Origin: Acidobacteriota bacterium
GTDB taxonomy: Bacteria > Acidobacteriota > UBA6911 > JACQSX01
Direction of reading: 5' to 3'
NCBI GenBank assembly: GCA_036507075.1
Contig: DASXQR010000202.1
Coordinates: forward strand, 1-24,893
Length of the DNA stretch: 24,893 nucleotides
This document shows, one piece after another, positions 3,743 to 24,055 of the stretch. The first letter of the stretch is position 1; the number at the start of each line of letters is the position of its first letter. Below the pieces are notes generated by a model. The model was not told the DNA's origin and did no database searches. It worked only from the letters and a program-made list of their open reading frames with translations. The position numbers and the translations under genes were made by a program.

Positions 3743-4528
3743 TTGCCGGAACGTTGCTCTCTTCCCGATCTGCCATATTCGATTCTGCATTTCCTTGAAA
3801 TTGACAGCACCAGTCAGTATCTTCGCGAGTGGGGAAGGCAATTCCCGGAAAACGGCCTGGTGGTCTGGGCCGATTACCAGACTGCAGGACGCGGCCGGAT
3901 GGGGAGAGTTTGGCACGCGGAACGAACAGAGGGCCTTTGCTTCTCAATGCTGATTTCGCCGGCACACCCGCGCAGTGTCATGCGCATTCCCCTGGCGGCC
4001 GCAGTGGTGCTGTACGATACGCTGGTGCAGCAGGAGGCCTCGCTGAAAGATTCTCTTGACCTGAAATGGCCCAATGACGTTTTGCTCGGGCACAAAAAGG
4101 TTGCCGGAATTCTGACAGAGCTCGACAACGGTGAAAACGGTTCGTTCGTTGTGCTCGGCGTCGGACTCAACTGCAATCAGGAACAATTCTCCCCCTCTCT
4201 GCCTGGCGCCACTTCCTTGCGCATTGAACTGGGACGCGCGGTGAAACGGGCGACGCTGCTGGAGCAGTTTCTGAGGAACTGGCACCAGTACTTTCAGAGT
4301 TTCTTTGACTGGCCGGCGGCAGGAGTGGAGGTAATCGCCGACTGGAAGACGCGCAGTCAATTCTGGAGGAACCAGCCGGTTCAATTCGTCATTGACAGCA
4401 AAAAGATGCAAGCAAGAACGCGCGATCTCGCTCCCTCGGGCGCCCTGGTGGTTCTGTTAGAATCTGGAGAGCAAAGAGAGATTATTTCCGGCGAGGTAGA
4501 GTGGATCCGTGTGAAAGACGGTCAGTAG
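3743..4528 (+). CDS. birA: Biotin--[acetyl-CoA carboxylase] ligase, monofunctional (no N-terminal HTH)
   Basis: Motifs QTAGRGRMGRVW, LKWPND, KKVAGIL and GVGLN. TTG start 2 nt after the nadC stop; the start is uncertain. Confidence 0.93.
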   Translation: MPERCSLPDLPYSILHFLEIDSTSQYLREWGRQFPENGLVVWADYQTAGRGRMGRVWHAERTEGLCFSMLISPAHPRSVMRIPLAAAVVLYDTLVQQEASLKDSLDLKWPNDVLLGHKKVAGILTELDNGENGSFVVLGVGLNCNQEQFSPSLPGATSLRIELGRAVKRATLLEQFLRNWHQYFQSFFDWPAAGVEVIADWKTRSQFWRNQPVQFVIDSKKMQARTRDLAPSGALVVLLESGEQREIISGEVEWIRVKDGQ

Positions 4529-4531
4529 ACT

Positions 4532-4641
4532 GTTGTCCGTGGTCCGTTGTTCGTTGTCAGTGGTCCGTGATAACAACTGACAACTGACACAACTGACAAC
4601 TGACAACTGACAACGAACCATTGACAACGGACAACTGACAA
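4532..4641. repeat. Fold-back element B: inverted heptamer arrays GTKGTCM / ACAACTG
   Basis: Five units GTTGTCC GTGGTCC GTTGTTC GTTGTCA GTGGTCC (4532-4566), a 6-nt gap, then about nine ACAACTG-like units (4573-4641). Confidence 0.92.
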
Positions 4642-4644
4642 AAG

Positions 4645-5583
4645 ATGAGTATTTTTAACTACAAGGAACAACCCGGCTATTTCAGCCGCCTGAAAGAAGC
4701 TATTCAGGTCACCAAAAAAGACTTCGTCGATAAGATCGACGACGCCCTGGGTCGCGAGAAAGAGATCGACGAAAACCTGCTCGACGATCTGGAAAGAATT
4801 CTCATTTCCACCGATGTGGGAGTCGACACGGCGGTCAAGACCATCGACAAAATTCGAGTGCTGGCCAGCAGCAAACAGTTGCGAAACATTCGCGAAGTGA
4901 AGCGGCTGATCAAGTCTGAACTGCTCGAGATCCTGAAAAAGGTCGATTCGGAGCCACCCTTGAATGGGGTGCCGATTCGCGTCGTGATGGTGATAGGCGT
5001 AAACGGCGTGGGCAAGACCACTACCATCGGTAAGCTGGCCCGGCTTTACAAGCAGCAGGGCAAAGAGGTCTTGATTTGCGCCGCCGACACTTTCCGGGCG
5101 GCGGCCGTAGAACAACTCGCCGTCTGGGCGGAGCGCAATCAGGTGGAAATGGTCAAGCAGAAAACCGGATCGGACCCATCGGCGGTTTTGTTCGACGCTA
5201 TTGCCGCTTCCAAGGCGCGCCGCAAGAGCGTCATCATCGTGGACACGGCCGGAAGACTCCACACCAAGAGCAACTTGATGCAGGAGCTGGAAAAGATGAA
5301 GCGCGTCGCGGGAAGGGAAGTCCCAGGTGCTCCCCACGATATTCTGCTGGTTCTTGACGCAACTACCGGTCAGAACGGTCTGGTACAGGCTCGCGAGTTT
5401 ACGCGTTCGGTGGGCGTTACCGGCTTGATTGTGACAAAGCTCGATGGCACGGCCAAGGGAGGGATTCTGATTGCGATCGCCAGGGAACTGGGCTTGCCTA
5501 TTTATTATATTGGCGTGGGCGAAGGGATCGAAGACCTGATGGTATTTTCGCCTGAGGCTTACGTGGAGGGACTTTTCGATTAG
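4645..5583 (+). CDS. ftsY: Signal recognition particle receptor FtsY (short NG form)
   Basis: Motifs GVNGVGKTTTIGKLA, DTFRAAAVEQL, DTAGRLH, LDATTGQN, TKLDGTAKGG and GVGEGIEDL. Confidence 0.97.
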   Translation: MSIFNYKEQPGYFSRLKEAIQVTKKDFVDKIDDALGREKEIDENLLDDLERILISTDVGVDTAVKTIDKIRVLASSKQLRNIREVKRLIKSELLEILKKVDSEPPLNGVPIRVVMVIGVNGVGKTTTIGKLARLYKQQGKEVLICAADTFRAAAVEQLAVWAERNQVEMVKQKTGSDPSAVLFDAIAASKARRKSVIIVDTAGRLHTKSNLMQELEKMKRVAGREVPGAPHDILLVLDATTGQNGLVQAREFTRSVGVTGLIVTKLDGTAKGGILIAIARELGLPIYYIGVGEGIEDLMVFSPEAYVEGLFD

Positions 5584-5857
5584 TCCGTGGTCAGTGGTCC
5601 GTTGTCCGTAGTCATTGTTGCGGGTTAGCGGGTTATCGAGTTACGGGTTAGTGGGTTATCGAGTTACGGGTTCCGAGTTTTAGAACTTAAGATTTAAAAA
5701 CTAGAAATTAATGGAAGCTGCCGCGCTCAATTTTCAAATTTTGAATTCTTCAATTCCACAATTCATTACAATTCATAACCGAAACCCGTAACCCGAAACC
5801 CCGAAACCCGTAACCCGTAAACCCGAAAACCCGAAAACGACAACTGACAACGGACAA
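5583..5857. repeat. Fold-back element C: three nested inverted repeat arrays
   Basis: Outer GTGGTCC-type 5583-5613 / GACAACT-type 5839-5857. Middle CGGGTTA-type 5621-5680 / AACCCG(T/A)-type 5777-5838. Inner AT-rich TTTAGAA-type ~5679-5709 / AATTTTC-type ~5729-5776. Confidence 0.9.
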
Positions 5858-5859
5858 AC

Positions 5860-7641
5860 ATGAAACTAAGCAACTACTCGCTGAACTACTCACGGTTGCT
5901 GGCGGCGCGGCAGATGGATATCTTCAGGTTTCTCGAAATCTGCCGGGAGCTGCAACTGGAAGGGGCCAGTCTCCATGTTCGCGACCTGGAAAGCACCCAG
6001 CCGGATTACTTGAAAAAAATCCGCCGGCATTTCCTTGACAATGGTCTTTCCCTTGCGTTGCTGACCGTCACAACGGATTTTGGCAAGGCGGACCACCAGC
6101 CGGAGTTCGAAAAGGCAGTGGAAGCTCTGCGCGTGGCAGCGTTTCTGGGTGCTCCTTTGCTGCGGGTTTTCGCAGGCTCGCCGGTTGCTGAAACGGAACG
6201 CTCGGCGACCTTCCAACGGGCTGCCGGCGGCCTCCGGAAAGTCTGCGAAGCCGCTGCAGAATGGGGGATTCCAGTCGGCCTGCAGAACCACAATCACGGC
6301 GCGCTCTGCAGGACGGGTGACGAAGTGATTCGTTTTATGCGGAACGTGAACCACGCGAACCTCACATTTGTACTCGACACCGGGCAATTTGCCGGGTCGC
6401 GGGGAGCCAGCGGCGCTGCACCTCCCGAGCTGCAGTCCGCTGATCCGATGGAAAGCATTCGCCAGACTGCGTCCCTGGCGCGCTACGTGCGGGCCAAGTT
6501 TTACAGCCCGGCGCGGGATGGATCCGAGCCTTCGATCGATTACCGCAAGGTAGTGGACATTATGGACGGCGTGCATTATCAGGGCTTCATTGACATCGTG
6601 TACGAGCCGCCGCAGGATGGCGAAGACTTGCGTTCCGCCCTGCCGCGCGTGGTCTCTTTTTTGCGCTCGGTGATCAATTCCGGGGCGCAATCGGGAAGTT
6701 CTCAGAGGAGGGACGCCCGTTATGGGAACCTTACGCCTGAGAAATACTTTGCAGCGGCAGAGGTTCGCGTTGAAAACCAGCTTGCTTTCCTTGAGGGCCC
6801 GGCAGTGGATCGCAAAGGAGCTGTTTTCTTCACCAACATTCCCGCCGAGCAGATCCTCAAGTGGGACCCCGATGCGAAGAAGTTGTCGGTCATCAGGGAG
6901 AAGAGCAATCAAGCCAACGGCCTGATGTTCGACAGGGAGGGCAGGTTGGTGGCTTGCGAGGGTGGAGGTCGCGTCACCCGAATGAACGTCGGGACCGGGA
7001 AGCTTGAGGTTCTAGCCGCCGGCTATCAAGGCAAACCGCTCGGCGCGCCCAATGATTTGACGGTGGATCAAAGGGGACGCATTTATTTCACCTCACGTCT
7101 GGCCAATCGTGATCCGCAATCAGGCAACGTGAACGCGGTGTATCGGATTGATCCCGACGGCACGACCCACCGAATCCTGGCCTGGCCCGACATTGACATG
7201 CCCAACGGCATTGACACATCCCCCGATGACAAACGGTTATACCTGATTGATGCAGATTCCGGCGAAAACCGGGCCCGCAGGATCCGAGTTTATGACCTGC
7301 AACCGGACGGCACCGCCACCAACGGCAGATTGTTGTATGACTTTTACCCTGGCCGCAGTGGAGACGGAATGGCCGTCGATCAGGAGGGTAATCTGTACAT
7401 CGCGGCAGGCTTGCATCGGCGGCGCGCGACCAGCGAGACTCTCCATACGCGTCCTGGCATTCACGTGATCACACCCACGGGAAACCTGGCTGCTTTTGTG
7501 GAAACGCCCGAAGATACCATTACCAACTGCGCGTTTGGCGGGCCGGATTGGCGGACGCTCTACATCACGTGCGGCAAACTTCTGCTAAGCATTCGCACCC
7601 AGATCCCGGGCAAGGCATCTTACCGGCCGGAGAGGGGCTAA
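5860..7641 (+). CDS. Fusion protein: N-terminal sugar-phosphate isomerase/epimerase (xylose-isomerase-like TIM barrel) plus C-terminal SMP-30/gluconolactonase beta-propeller
   Basis: Residues ~1-275 carry LGAPLLRVFAG, GLQNH, LDTGQF and YQGFIDIVYE. A Ser/Gly linker (SGAQSGSSQ) follows. Residues ~305-585 carry EGP, ANGLMFDREGRL, PNDLTVDQRGRIYFT, PNGI, DGMAVDQEGNLY and TNCAFGGPDWRTLYIT. Confidence 0.85.
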   Translation: MKLSNYSLNYSRLLAARQMDIFRFLEICRELQLEGASLHVRDLESTQPDYLKKIRRHFLDNGLSLALLTVTTDFGKADHQPEFEKAVEALRVAAFLGAPLLRVFAGSPVAETERSATFQRAAGGLRKVCEAAAEWGIPVGLQNHNHGALCRTGDEVIRFMRNVNHANLTFVLDTGQFAGSRGASGAAPPELQSADPMESIRQTASLARYVRAKFYSPARDGSEPSIDYRKVVDIMDGVHYQGFIDIVYEPPQDGEDLRSALPRVVSFLRSVINSGAQSGSSQRRDARYGNLTPEKYFAAAEVRVENQLAFLEGPAVDRKGAVFFTNIPAEQILKWDPDAKKLSVIREKSNQANGLMFDREGRLVACEGGGRVTRMNVGTGKLEVLAAGYQGKPLGAPNDLTVDQRGRIYFTSRLANRDPQSGNVNAVYRIDPDGTTHRILAWPDIDMPNGIDTSPDDKRLYLIDADSGENRARRIRVYDLQPDGTATNGRLLYDFYPGRSGDGMAVDQEGNLYIAAGLHRRRATSETLHTRPGIHVITPTGNLAAFVETPEDTITNCAFGGPDWRTLYITCGKLLLSIRTQIPGKASYRPERG

Positions 7642-8972: not shown

Positions 8973-9129
8973 AAGGAATCACCACAAAGACACAAAGGGC
9001 ACGAAGAACCTTTTAGCCGCCGGTGGTCAGCTCTGACCATGCTCTTGCAAATCTGCTGGTTCCAGGAGAGCTGACCACCGGCGGCCAAAAGGTTTCTTTG
9101 TGCTCTTTGTGTCTTTGTGGTGATTCCTT
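8973..9129. repeat. Fold-back element E: 62-bp inverted repeat with a 32-nt loop and 8/9-mer outer arms
   Basis: 8973-9034 versus the reverse complement of 9067-9129 shows 3 substitutions and one 1-nt indel. The outer part reads ACCACAAAG ACACAAAG GGCACGAAG. Confidence 0.95.
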
Positions 9130-17445: not shown

Positions 17446-17605
17446 CATTAGTCATTGGTCATCGTTGGTCATTAGTCATCAGTCATTGGTCATGCAGTAA
17501 TGAAGTTCAGGAGCTTGGTGCCTCGGTGGTAAAGAAATTGGAACCGCCAAGACACCAAGCCAATGATTATGATTAATGACCAATGACGAATGACCAATGA
17601 CTAAT
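17446..17605. repeat. Fold-back element I: CATTGGT/AATGACC heptamer arms enclosing a G-type hairpin
   Basis: Outer arms 17446-17493 and 17562-17605. Inner GCTTGGTGCCTCGGTGGT (17513-17530) pairs with ACCGCCAAGACACCAAGC (17543-17560), 15/18. Confidence 0.9.
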
Positions 17606-22938: not shown

Positions 22939-22967
22939 GAGTCCAGAGATTTAGGAAACGGGTTCAC

Positions 22968-23258
22968 GTCAGTTGTCCGTGGTCCGTTGTCGGAAGGCGG
23001 AAAGCGGAAAGCGGAAGGCGGAAAGCGGAAGGCGGAAGGCGGAAGGCGGAAAGCGGAAGGCGGAAGGCGGAAGGCCGAAAGCGGAAGGCGGAAGGCGGAA
23101 GGAACCGGAAAGCGCGAAAGGTGGGCCAAGTCGGCGGGCCGCTCACTCCGTTCGCGCTCGGATGGCGTACAATACGACCACTCTCTATCCTCTGCTTCCT
23201 CCTTCCTGCTTCCTGCTGCCTGCTTCCTGCTTTCCGCCTTCTGCCTTCCGACAACTGA
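22968..23258. repeat. Fold-back element K: CGGAARG x16 / CTGCTTC-CCGCCTT x8 nested inside GTTGTCC/GACAACT arms
   Basis: Outer arms 22968-22991 and 23250-23258. Inner arrays 22991-23102 and 23192-23250. Confidence 0.93.
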
Positions 23259-23269
23259 GCACGAACGAT

Positions 23270-24055
23270 TCACTTGGCAATCAGCCTTGCCAAAGCCAGG
23301 TATTTTTCGACGGGTATTTCCTCCGGCCTTGCGCCGGGCGGAATTCCTGCGGCAGACAGCAGGGACGGGTCAAAGCGGCTGGCCTTGAGGTTGTTTTGAA
23401 TGGTCTTGCGGCGATGTGTGAAGCTGGCGCTCAGCAGGCTCTTTGTCAGTTCCCAAAGTTCTCGTTCAAGCAGCAGGTCCCGGCGGGGTGTCAGTCGCAG
23501 CACCATGGAATCGACTTTCGGTTTGGGGAAGAAAGCGGCCCGGGAAACCTGAAAACCCTTTTCAATGCGAAACGCCAGCGAGCAGAGGCATGAAAGATAA
23601 CCATAATCCTTCGACCCGGGAACGGCCCAGATCCTGTGGGCCACTTCCCTTTGGACCATGAAGATCAGCTCCGAGATCAAAGGCTTCCATTCAGGTTCGG
23701 CGAATTTCTGGATCAGGTGGGTGGCAACATTATAGGGCAGATTGCCGAAGAACTTTCTGGGGTGCTCGCCGGGCAAATTCGAAGGTTCCAGAGTGCGCGC
23801 ATCGGCCAGCCACAGGCGTGCGGCGGGATGCGTCTTGAACAATACGGCCAGCGGCCCCCGCGCCAGTTCCGGATCAATCTCAACAGCGATCAATTCCTGG
23901 CTGATCTCCAGCAGACGCGCGGTAAGGGCGCCGTCGCCCGGGCCAATTTCAACGAGAGGTTCGCCTGGCCGAACGTGACCAAATTGAATGATCTTGCTTA
24001 TCGTACCGGGGCTTCTGAGGAAACTCTGACCGAGTGATTTCTTCGGGTGAGTCAT
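23270..24055 (-). CDS. rsmA: 16S rRNA adenine dimethyltransferase KsgA/RsmA
   Basis: Motifs KKSLGQSFL, EIGPGDGALT, VEID, GNLPYNV, MVQREVA, FFPKPKVDS and FTHRRKTIQNNL. Confidence 0.95.
   Translation of the reverse strand: MTHPKKSLGQSFLRSPGTISKIIQFGHVRPGEPLVEIGPGDGALTARLLEISQELIAVEIDPELARGPLAVLFKTHPAARLWLADARTLEPSNLPGEHPRKFFGNLPYNVATHLIQKFAEPEWKPLISELIFMVQREVAHRIWAVPGSKDYGYLSCLCSLAFRIEKGFQVSRAAFFPKPKVDSMVLRLTPRRDLLLERELWELTKSLLSASFTHRRKTIQNNLKASRFDPSLLSAAGIPPGARPEEIPVEKYLALARLIAK

What the first reader, a model, noticed from the sequence alone, without database searches (positions are those of the whole stretch)
5583..5857. Russian-doll element: three repeat families nested symmetrically between ftsY and the next gene
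Seen: the order is A-B-C-core-C'-B'-A'. A is the GTGGTCC type (5583-5613 / 5839-5857), B the CGGGTTA type (5621-5680 / 5777-5838) and C an AT-rich heptamer (~5679-5709 / ~5729-5776, loosest match). The core is about 19 nt (AATGGAAGCTGCCGCGCTC). Family A occurs alone with almost no spacer at 4532-4641. The left B arm contains a 23-nt higher-order duplication (5621-5643 vs 5644-5666, 22/23) that the right arm does not mirror. Inference: new arm pairs are added at the centre of an existing element, so the layers would record successive events from oldest (outside) to newest (inside). Simple slippage does not explain a symmetric switch of unit on both arms.
Basis: partly seen in the sequence, partly recalled or inferred. 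Interest (0 to 1): 0.85.

Follow-up and report, generated by a model that had tools for sequence, protein, structure and literature searches.

The report
Nested repeat hairpins behind ftsY
The spacer after ftsY is a real hairpin made of short-repeat elements nested one inside another, and such nesting is the rule in this soil bacterium; the small genes that normally ride inside these repeats share a promoter-like signal with the cell's DNA-uptake genes, which suggests a testable way in which these poorly understood repeats spread.

Summary
The element is real and nested (A-B-C-core-C'-B'-A', 5581-5857). Mirrored nesting is the genome-wide rule: 69 of 75 two-family cases are nested, 5 side by side, 1 interleaved. 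Three corrections. (1) C is not a third free family but the inner tier of a B subfamily. (2) The composite probably did not grow at ftsY: paralogues with the same interior sit at three unrelated sites, two with A outside. (3) Layer order is genome-specific: A outside B 11:0 here, B outside A in a Planctomycetota genome. Inner-is-newer is favoured, not shown; the host loop is missing, so the inner unit replaced it or hit a loop-less hairpin. The element is a gene-less member of the heptamer-armed four-helix-bundle/GxxExxY cassette family, which this scan has found before in this and other genomes. Not seen in my look-ups: these cassette genes and most Y1 transposase genes share one promoter-like motif with comEA, comEC, comF, comM, dprA, ssb, recA and radC homologues. 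Best model: selfish hairpin mini-elements that move and nest when competence is induced.

The parts
4645..5583 (+). ftsY; its TAG stop codon is the first three bases of the left A arm
   Evidence: TIGR00064 338.5 bits, above cut-off; sequence
5581..5619 (+). outer left arm, family A heptamers (GTCCGTT/GTCAGTG type), ending in a T-like unit
5620..5679 (+). left B arm (CGGGTT/CGAGTT 7-8-mers)
5621..5666 (+). 23-nt tandem duplication (22/23) within left B, not mirrored: local slippage after arrival (inferred)
5680..5709 (+). left C tier: AT-rich continuation of the B arm, part of the B-C unit
   Evidence: (p = 0.023 against right C)
5710..5728 (.). 19-nt core, homologous to the cores at C133, C149 and C198 of the same genome
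5729..5757 (-). right C' tier
5758..5775 (-). AT-decayed B' units (aligned to B' units of the paralogues)
5776..5838 (-). right B' arm
5839..5857 (-). outer right A' arm, ending 2 nt before the next ATG
5860..7641 (+). downstream gene: xylose-isomerase-like TIM barrel fused to an SMP-30/gluconolactonase domain
   Evidence: PF01261 and PF08450
4524..4641 (.). nearly loop-less single-family A hairpin between birA and ftsY; supplies birA's last codons and stop; absent in relative G001, where the birA stop lies 1 nt before the ftsY start

Best explanation
The element is a gene-less, non-autonomous hairpin of the heptamer-armed cassette family. Step 1 (shown for families X and S, inferred for B): full cassettes are arm-promoter-gene-arm' with a four-helix-bundle (PF05635) or GxxExxY (PF13366) gene, and internal deletion leaves gene-less hairpins. 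Step 2 (inferred): a B-C-core-C'-B' unit landed at the apex of an A hairpin, either a loop-less one or with loss of the loop. This gives mirrored tiers with no linker, so only two layers (A and B+C) stand for separate events. Step 3 (shown by paralogy): such composites are copied as wholes or exchange interiors between same-arm sites; this one arrived at the ftsY stop codon that way, and slippage then changed each arm independently. Step 4 (motif shown, function inferred): the cassette genes and most Y1 transposase genes carry the same promoter-like motif as the DNA-uptake and recombination genes, so movement and nesting most likely happen during competence, on single-stranded DNA where the arms fold. 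Which protein cuts and joins is not shown. The nest is a by-product of selfish spread; in the mRNA it can form a long stem that brings the ftsY stop and the next start together (prediction only).
For: Nesting 69 of 75 (64 of 69 elements purely nested). No linker between tiers in 20 of 23 A-outer and 14 of 18 G-outer pairs, while free A and G loops have medians of 46.5 and 44 nt; 21% of 42 free A elements have loops of 10 nt or less. The same core occurs free and nested: N core 29 free of 33, H core 23 free of 28, B core C10 (in A) vs C17 (free), A core C176 (free) vs C55 (in G). Sum-of-parts case: loop-less A-V hairpins (5 of 8) and an R-armed REPIN-like unit (two free copies) exist separately and are found combined as A-V-R at C170:16703. 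The ftsY interior's best match among 98 other B interiors is C133 (67 of 89 columns, score 40 vs 14.3 +/- 6.2), then C149 and C198. Whole composites are duplicated (C129 twice; C149/C198). All 7 four-helix-bundle loci have same-family arms on both sides, 5 as clean inverted pairs, one of them with B arms. Eleven of 68 X interiors match the X cassette and keep the gene's last codons; one S element is an internal deletion. Promoter motif: 69 sites vs 0-2 for column-shuffled matrices; 9 of 13 non-seed cassette or Y1 loci carry it; 13 of 20 scanned downstream proteins are DNA-uptake or recombination families; motif counts 50, 26 and 7 in three relatives vs 1, 0 and 0 for the reversed control. Precedents in passages read: REPINs insert into or next to REPINs (PMC3116915); E. 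coli RAYT yafM rises on competence induction (cited in PMC5581495).
Against: No orthologous empty or intermediate ftsY site was found; relatives are about 80% identical in protein and have other downstream sequence. The ftsY interior has no promoter remnant (best score 0.9), and no B interior of 100 matched an interior of the 11 cassettes tested. Only 1% of 121 free G elements are loop-less, yet G is the commonest outer tier, so loop loss or a few founders must be assumed. No consistent target duplication is visible at junctions by eye. Composites are not independent: the A-outside-B cases fall into about 6 core lineages (6:0, p = 0.03). The HMM can absorb linkers of roughly 10-15 nt (my estimate). 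The motif is lineage-limited: 1 of 25 class-wide four-helix-bundle loci scored, and none was found in G004 or G005. The 20 scanned proteins were my pick from 56 ORFs, favouring recognisable ones; 6 had no family. C133's outer tier is short and T/A-like, so it does not prove independent pairing of tiers.
Confidence: 0.55

Rival explanations
1. One reading: three independent elements inserted one after another at the centre of this very site, outermost oldest.
For: Mirrored order at the locus and genome-wide; a loop-less A hairpin, the expected first stage, sits 1 kb upstream.
Against: C has no free pair and goes with B. The C-core-C' interior is shared with three other sites, two also A-outer.
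Confidence: 0.1
2. Outside-in capping: arms are added to both ends of an existing element when it moves (for instance by templated repeat synthesis involving an Avd-like protein), so the outer tier is newest.
For: No host loop needs to vanish. The two arms share unit type but hardly sequence: inner 24 nt of A arms score 12.0 within a locus vs 11.4 between loci, G 16.1 vs 16.2. Innermost tiers are AT-rich and look decayed; periodicity lingers inside B loops (0.25-0.27 vs 0.12-0.18 outside). Outer A arms are shorter than free ones (36 vs 48.5 nt) with equal purity. A REPIN-like unit is framed on both sides in 12 of 19 cases.
Against: Conserved G-A and A-V junctions recur around unrelated cores, so two-tier arms are inherited modules; the A-V-R case is the sum of two existing parts. 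I did not look for a polymerase linked to the cassettes, and none turned up among the 20 motif-bearing proteins scanned. The likeness to Avd is recalled; one search found only 2GSC and 2RLD.
Confidence: 0.12
3. Interior exchange by ordinary recombination: no dedicated mobiliser makes the nests; RecA/DprA recombine incoming or resident DNA between same-family arms and move interiors between existing hairpins.
For: Same outer module with different cores and same core at several A-outer sites; recA, dprA and comM share the motif.
Against: Does not create the first junction between two unrelated families. Elements with mismatched arms are rare (29 against 676 matched two-arm elements). Arms are only 20-70 nt. 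It may act in addition to the best model.
Confidence: 0.15
4. Selected RNA function: the long stem is kept to tune ftsY-operon expression (stability, processing, coupling of stop and start), and nesting is selected because only mirrored additions keep the stem.
For: 83% of A-outer composites with a scored stop start within 10 nt of it, and most lie between co-directional genes (23 of 28). Arm lengths correlate (B rho 0.54).
Against: Not conserved behind ftsY in the three family relatives with an ftsY locus. No Rfam match at gathering score and no terminator-like site. Arms are imperfectly paired. Selection on pairing could filter but not generate the tiers.
Confidence: 0.08

Closest known systems
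REP/BIME/REPIN elements with RAYT (TnpA-REP) transposases (PMC3116915, PMC3333891, PMC5581495; passages read)
   Same: Intergenic hairpin doublets as the unit of spread; clusters formed by insertion into or next to existing elements; single-strand processing; E. coli RAYT reported as competence-induced.
   Different: Arms here are tandem 7-9-mers of variable number, not fixed palindromes. Nesting is systematic and mirrored, without linkers. The genes found between the arms are four-helix-bundle and GxxExxY, not Y1; only 3 of 12 Y1 loci have an HMM arm call within 300 nt, none as an inverted pair.
Inverted GGGAATC heptamer pairs of Xanthomonas and heptamer arrays of Nostoc (PMC4692102; passages read)
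   Same: Intergenic heptamer arrays in convergent pairs close to the upstream ORF, with length variation between relatives.
   Different: One family per genome was studied; the word 'nested' and 'four helix' do not occur in its main text. Here about 17 families coexist and nest.
MITEs (Correia/NEMIS, ERIC, RUP; as summarised in PMC3733652, passages read)
   Same: Non-coding internal-deletion derivatives with inverted ends, next to coding sequences, folding into stems.
   Different: Ends are tandem arrays without a fixed terminal sequence; no consistent target duplication seen; the parent cassettes encode no DDE transposase.
ORF-bearing 23S rRNA intervening sequences (S23p / four-helix bundle, PF05635; structure 2GSC)
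   Same: Same protein family inside a long hairpin.
   Different: Here between protein genes with tandem-repeat arms; this copy has no gene; RNA-level excision was not tested. The IVS biology is recalled, not read.

Membership tests
REP/REPIN | 20-60 nt palindromic unit tagged by GTAG/CGTC and repeated with near-fixed sequence | tested here: not met
   Arms are tandem 7-8-mers of variable number
REP/REPIN | Cognate RAYT gene flanked by the same repeat | tested here: not met
   No Y1 locus of 12 has A or B arms nearby
REP/REPIN | Intergenic inverted doublet forming a hairpin, high copy number | tested here: met
   676 matched two-arm elements over all families; fold z = -7.0
MITE | Target-site duplication and fixed terminal inverted repeat | tested here: inconclusive
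   No consistent duplication at junctions by eye; no empty orthologous site for ftsY
MITE | Derived by internal deletion from a gene-bearing parent | tested here: inconclusive
   Met for X (11 of 68) and one S element; 0 of 100 B interiors matched
Heptamer-armed four-helix-bundle/GxxExxY cassettes (earlier notes of this scan) | Inverted arms of tandem 7-9-mers of a family that also flanks a cassette gene | tested here: met
   B arms flank the four-helix-bundle locus on C73; A arms lie on both sides of the one on C88
Heptamer-armed four-helix-bundle/GxxExxY cassettes (earlier notes of this scan) | Mobility driven by the cassette protein | not testable with these tools
   Needs an assay
Competence regulon | Shared promoter motif before comEA, comEC, comF, comM, dprA, ssb, pilin, radC | tested here: met
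   Motif and Pfam families; gene names are my reading of the Pfam domains; the motif is before cassette genes, not in this element
Competence regulon | Co-induction from that promoter | not testable with these tools
Known structured RNA (Rfam) | Match at gathering score | tested here: not met
   Four weak miRNA-hairpin matches far below cut-off

The most novel reading that the evidence does not exclude
The unexplained bacterial heptamer repeats are the ends of a competence-triggered mobile-element system with no classical transposase: four-helix-bundle and GxxExxY proteins, switched on with the DNA-uptake genes, recognise folded arms on single-stranded DNA and place one armed element at the apex of another, so that nested hairpins act as reusable landing pads at stop codons and as new composite units.
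Probability: 0.33. Interest if true: 0.87.

Novelty: new variant of a known kind. Interest (0 to 1): 0.66.

Why it matters
Heptamer repeats are known to be over-represented in bacteria with little work on their origin (PMC4692102, introduction passages). This genome gives two handles. A strict architectural rule (mirrored nesting without the host loop) constrains how the elements land. A shared promoter-like motif says when to look: during competence. Together they turn 'what spreads these repeats' into a direct experiment on two protein families of unknown function. The motif also outlines a DNA-uptake regulon in an uncultured Acidobacteriota family.

Tried and rejected
Relatives at ftsY: 40 other genomes searched, 8 loci printed; the three family members have other sequence downstream. 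Metagenome scan with the downstream gene: 37 loci; the two full-length hits checked have no ftsY upstream. Sequencing runs: 6 listed, no RNA holder listed; no joint that removes inner tiers cleanly at ftsY; the one 5680-5790 skip has unknown sequence between and may come from another B locus. My recalled 'tandem inverted repeat' link to TIRtrons was wrong: TIR there means terminal inverted repeat (PMC3733652). A universal tier hierarchy was rejected. Arm-to-arm copying as the source of tiers was rejected as the main cause: within-locus arm likeness barely exceeds between-locus, although flanks of four of six anchored families pair 7-10 points more than permuted pairs. Arm purity as a clock was not used, because the HMM absorbs cores into inner arms. 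The B-C junction pattern gave 1 uninformative hit in GTDB genomes. No sigma-70 promoter or terminator pattern. Literature searches that found no paper on this nesting or on the cassette-competence link; the library lacks most subscription papers and I opened no supplements. PMC3333891, PMC3686654 and PMC3479197 passages gave no RAYT-competence statement.

Full report
Setting. The window is contig C202 of a 6.1-Mb genome in 233 contigs; acidobacterial VWA genes point to Acidobacteriota, and the DNA is held by soil runs. The element lies between ftsY (4645-5583) and a TIM-barrel/SMP-30 fusion gene (5860-7641). It starts on the ftsY stop codon and ends 2 nt before the next ATG.

Observation. B/B' and A/A' are clearly complementary (0 and 1 of 2000 shuffles), C/C' weakly (2.3%), and the 23-nt duplication is 22/23 on the left only. 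The DNA fold has z = -7.0. A contig of a second run reproduces 5234-5838 with one difference.

Genome-wide test. I clustered 2032 tandem arrays into 17 arm families, added C from 37 seeds outside this contig, and segmented the genome with an HMM whose switching cost does not favour any order. Each family with enough pairs has one arm orientation on the left (G 136:0, B 64:0, A 41:0; K is mixed). Of 1816 clusters, 322 hold more than one family. Where two families each have both arms (75 pairs in 69 elements), 69 are nested, 5 side by side and 1 interleaved. A motif count that does not use the HMM for the outer tier agrees: A on both outer sides of 11 of 128 B elements (1.4 expected), G around 18 of 107 A elements (3.9 expected). 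The window has two more nests, T around P at 17447-17605 and A around R at 22966-23270. Order here is G outside A 15:2, A outside B 11:0, A outside V 8:0, B outside P 4:0. These are not independent: the A-B cases fall into about six core lineages. In GTDB genomes both orders occur: a clean A-B-B'-A' in another Acidobacteriota MAG (L201) and B outside A in a Tepidisphaerales MAG and in L203. So mirroring is general and the hierarchy is local history.

C is not a third element. Of 38 non-coding C-type tracts, 20 are followed within 70 nt by a B right arm, against 2.1% of random non-coding positions. C motifs occur in 31 of 92 B interiors and 9 of 477 others, and the HMM found no free C-C' pair (the motifs were chosen after seeing B interiors). 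Some solo C tracts exist.

The composite has paralogues. The interior's best match among 98 other B interiors is C133 (67 of 89 columns; score 40 vs 14.3 +/- 6.2), then C149 and C198. All four share the core region. C149 and C198 have A outside; C133 has a short T/A-like tier. A second A-B lineage has five members, four with A on both sides. The layers therefore record the history of a subfamily more than of the ftsY gap.

Direction. Inner units occur free and nested: N 29 free of 33, H 23 of 28, and single pairs for B and A cores. Loop-less A-V hairpins and a free R-armed REPIN-like unit both exist and are found combined at C170:16703. Two-tier junctions are conserved around unrelated cores. 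This favours inner-newer. Against plain insertion: tiers abut without linker in 20 of 23 A-outer and 14 of 18 G-outer pairs, while free loops have medians of 46.5 and 44 nt (resolution about 10-15 nt by my estimate). The inner unit must replace the loop or hit loop-less hairpins (21% of free A, 1% of free G). An outside-in model is not excluded: inner tiers look more decayed and the two arms are hardly more alike within a locus than between loci. No close relative settles it. At the neighbouring birA-ftsY junction, relative G001 has no element, so the A hairpin there is an insertion or was lost in G001.

Parent cassettes. The genome has 7 four-helix-bundle loci, 6 GxxExxY matches and 12 Y1 matches. 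All 7 four-helix-bundle loci have same-family arms on both sides (R, A, T, X, B, S, T), 5 as clean inverted pairs; N, P, H and K arms lie at GxxExxY genes (P and part of K read by eye). Eleven of 68 X interiors match the X cassette and keep its last codons, and one S element is an internal deletion. No B interior matched, so descent of this element from a cassette rests on the shared arms. Earlier notes of this scan reached the same family picture; I tested it here as stated.

The promoter. Upstream of these genes lies one bipartite motif (TTCGCAGATTT, about 12 nt, GTTATGT). A matrix seeded on 12 cassette and Y1 sites finds 69 sites against 0-2 for five column-shuffled matrices, including 9 of the 13 non-seed cassette or Y1 loci. 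I scanned 20 of the 56 downstream ORFs, chosen by me: 13 are HHH_3 (ComEA-like), SSB, RecA, Mg-chelatase (ComM-like), pilin, phosphoribosyltransferase (ComF-like), Competence (ComEC), ERCC4, RadC, RecQ, DprA, RecG and UvrD; one is a zf-HC2/TPR protein and six have no family. That this set is the competence machinery is established knowledge. Many start codons lie 5 nt behind the motif, as for leaderless transcripts, so it is probably an alternative-sigma promoter (inference; an SOS-like reading is less apt because uptake genes are included). The motif occurs 50, 26 and 7 times in three family relatives (controls 1, 0, 0) and not in two other genomes; six of these sites precede four-helix-bundle hits by coordinates. 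It scored at only 1 of 25 class-wide four-helix-bundle loci (5 of 30 were dropped for lack of a tblastn hit), so it is lineage-specific. It is not present in the ftsY element.

Mechanism. Most likely: cassettes are expressed during competence; armed elements fold on single-stranded DNA and are moved to stop-codon junctions or to the apex of other hairpins; composites then spread as units or exchange interiors; slippage reshapes each arm. Shown: architecture, paralogy, deletion derivatives, motif sharing. Inferred: direction, timing, the active protein.

Comparison with print. REPINs are reported to insert into or next to REPINs (PMC3116915, passages). Competence induction of E. coli yafM is cited in PMC5581495 (passage; the primary paper was not read). 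Inverted heptamer pairs are described in Xanthomonas (PMC4692102, passages). My searches found no paper on mirrored multi-family nesting of such arms or on a competence promoter at these cassettes, and two word look-ups and one sequence look-up in the scan's notes returned nothing. The library is incomplete and supplements were not seen.

Verdict. Real; a new variant of a known kind. The Russian doll has two layers rather than three and is a by-product of a crowded repeat system. The lasting value is the nesting rule plus the competence link. Interest 0.66.

Noticed in passing
G000 genome-wide, e.g. C45:16778, C208:30341, C23:18269, C100:20614, C187:50829, C110:8680: A 69-site promoter-like motif links four-helix-bundle, GxxExxY and Y1 genes to DNA-uptake and recombination genes; shared by three family relatives.
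   Followed up: yes
G000 C10:24692-24769 (L192): A second, diverged copy of the last 26 codons of ftsY (92% amino-acid identity) with no repeat after its stop; it resembles the duplicated target of an island that once integrated in ftsY.
   Followed up: partly
window 4515-4528: The last codons and stop of birA are formed by the A arm; G001 ends differently and has no element.
   Followed up: partly
window 17447-17605 and 22966-23270: Two more nested elements: T around P, and A around R around a unique hairpin.
   Followed up: partly
window 8973-9129: K arms enclose a second, near-perfect non-tandem inverted repeat (28 nt, 96%).
   Followed up: no
G000, 19 sites: A REPIN-like unit is framed by R, S or B arms on both sides in 12 of 19 copies.
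   Followed up: partly
L102 (G062:C456): A four-helix-bundle cassette sits directly behind what reads by eye as a comEA-like helix-hairpin-helix gene.
   Followed up: no
L088, L097, L105 upstream of the four-helix-bundle gene: A different shared upstream motif (GGATCAA...ATTAGTA type) in family f6 genomes; possibly that lineage's own competence promoter.
   Followed up: no
L112, L115 (G002): The motif precedes ORFs that look like integron integrases by eye.
   Followed up: no
L193-L195, L210, L212 (Tepidisphaerales MAG): B-outside-A composites whose right outer arm uses a variant unit that leaves U-U mismatches.
   Followed up: partly
G000 C17:70862-71530: A zf-HC2/TPR protein, anti-sigma-like, lies under the motif; a lead to the regulator.
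   Followed up: no
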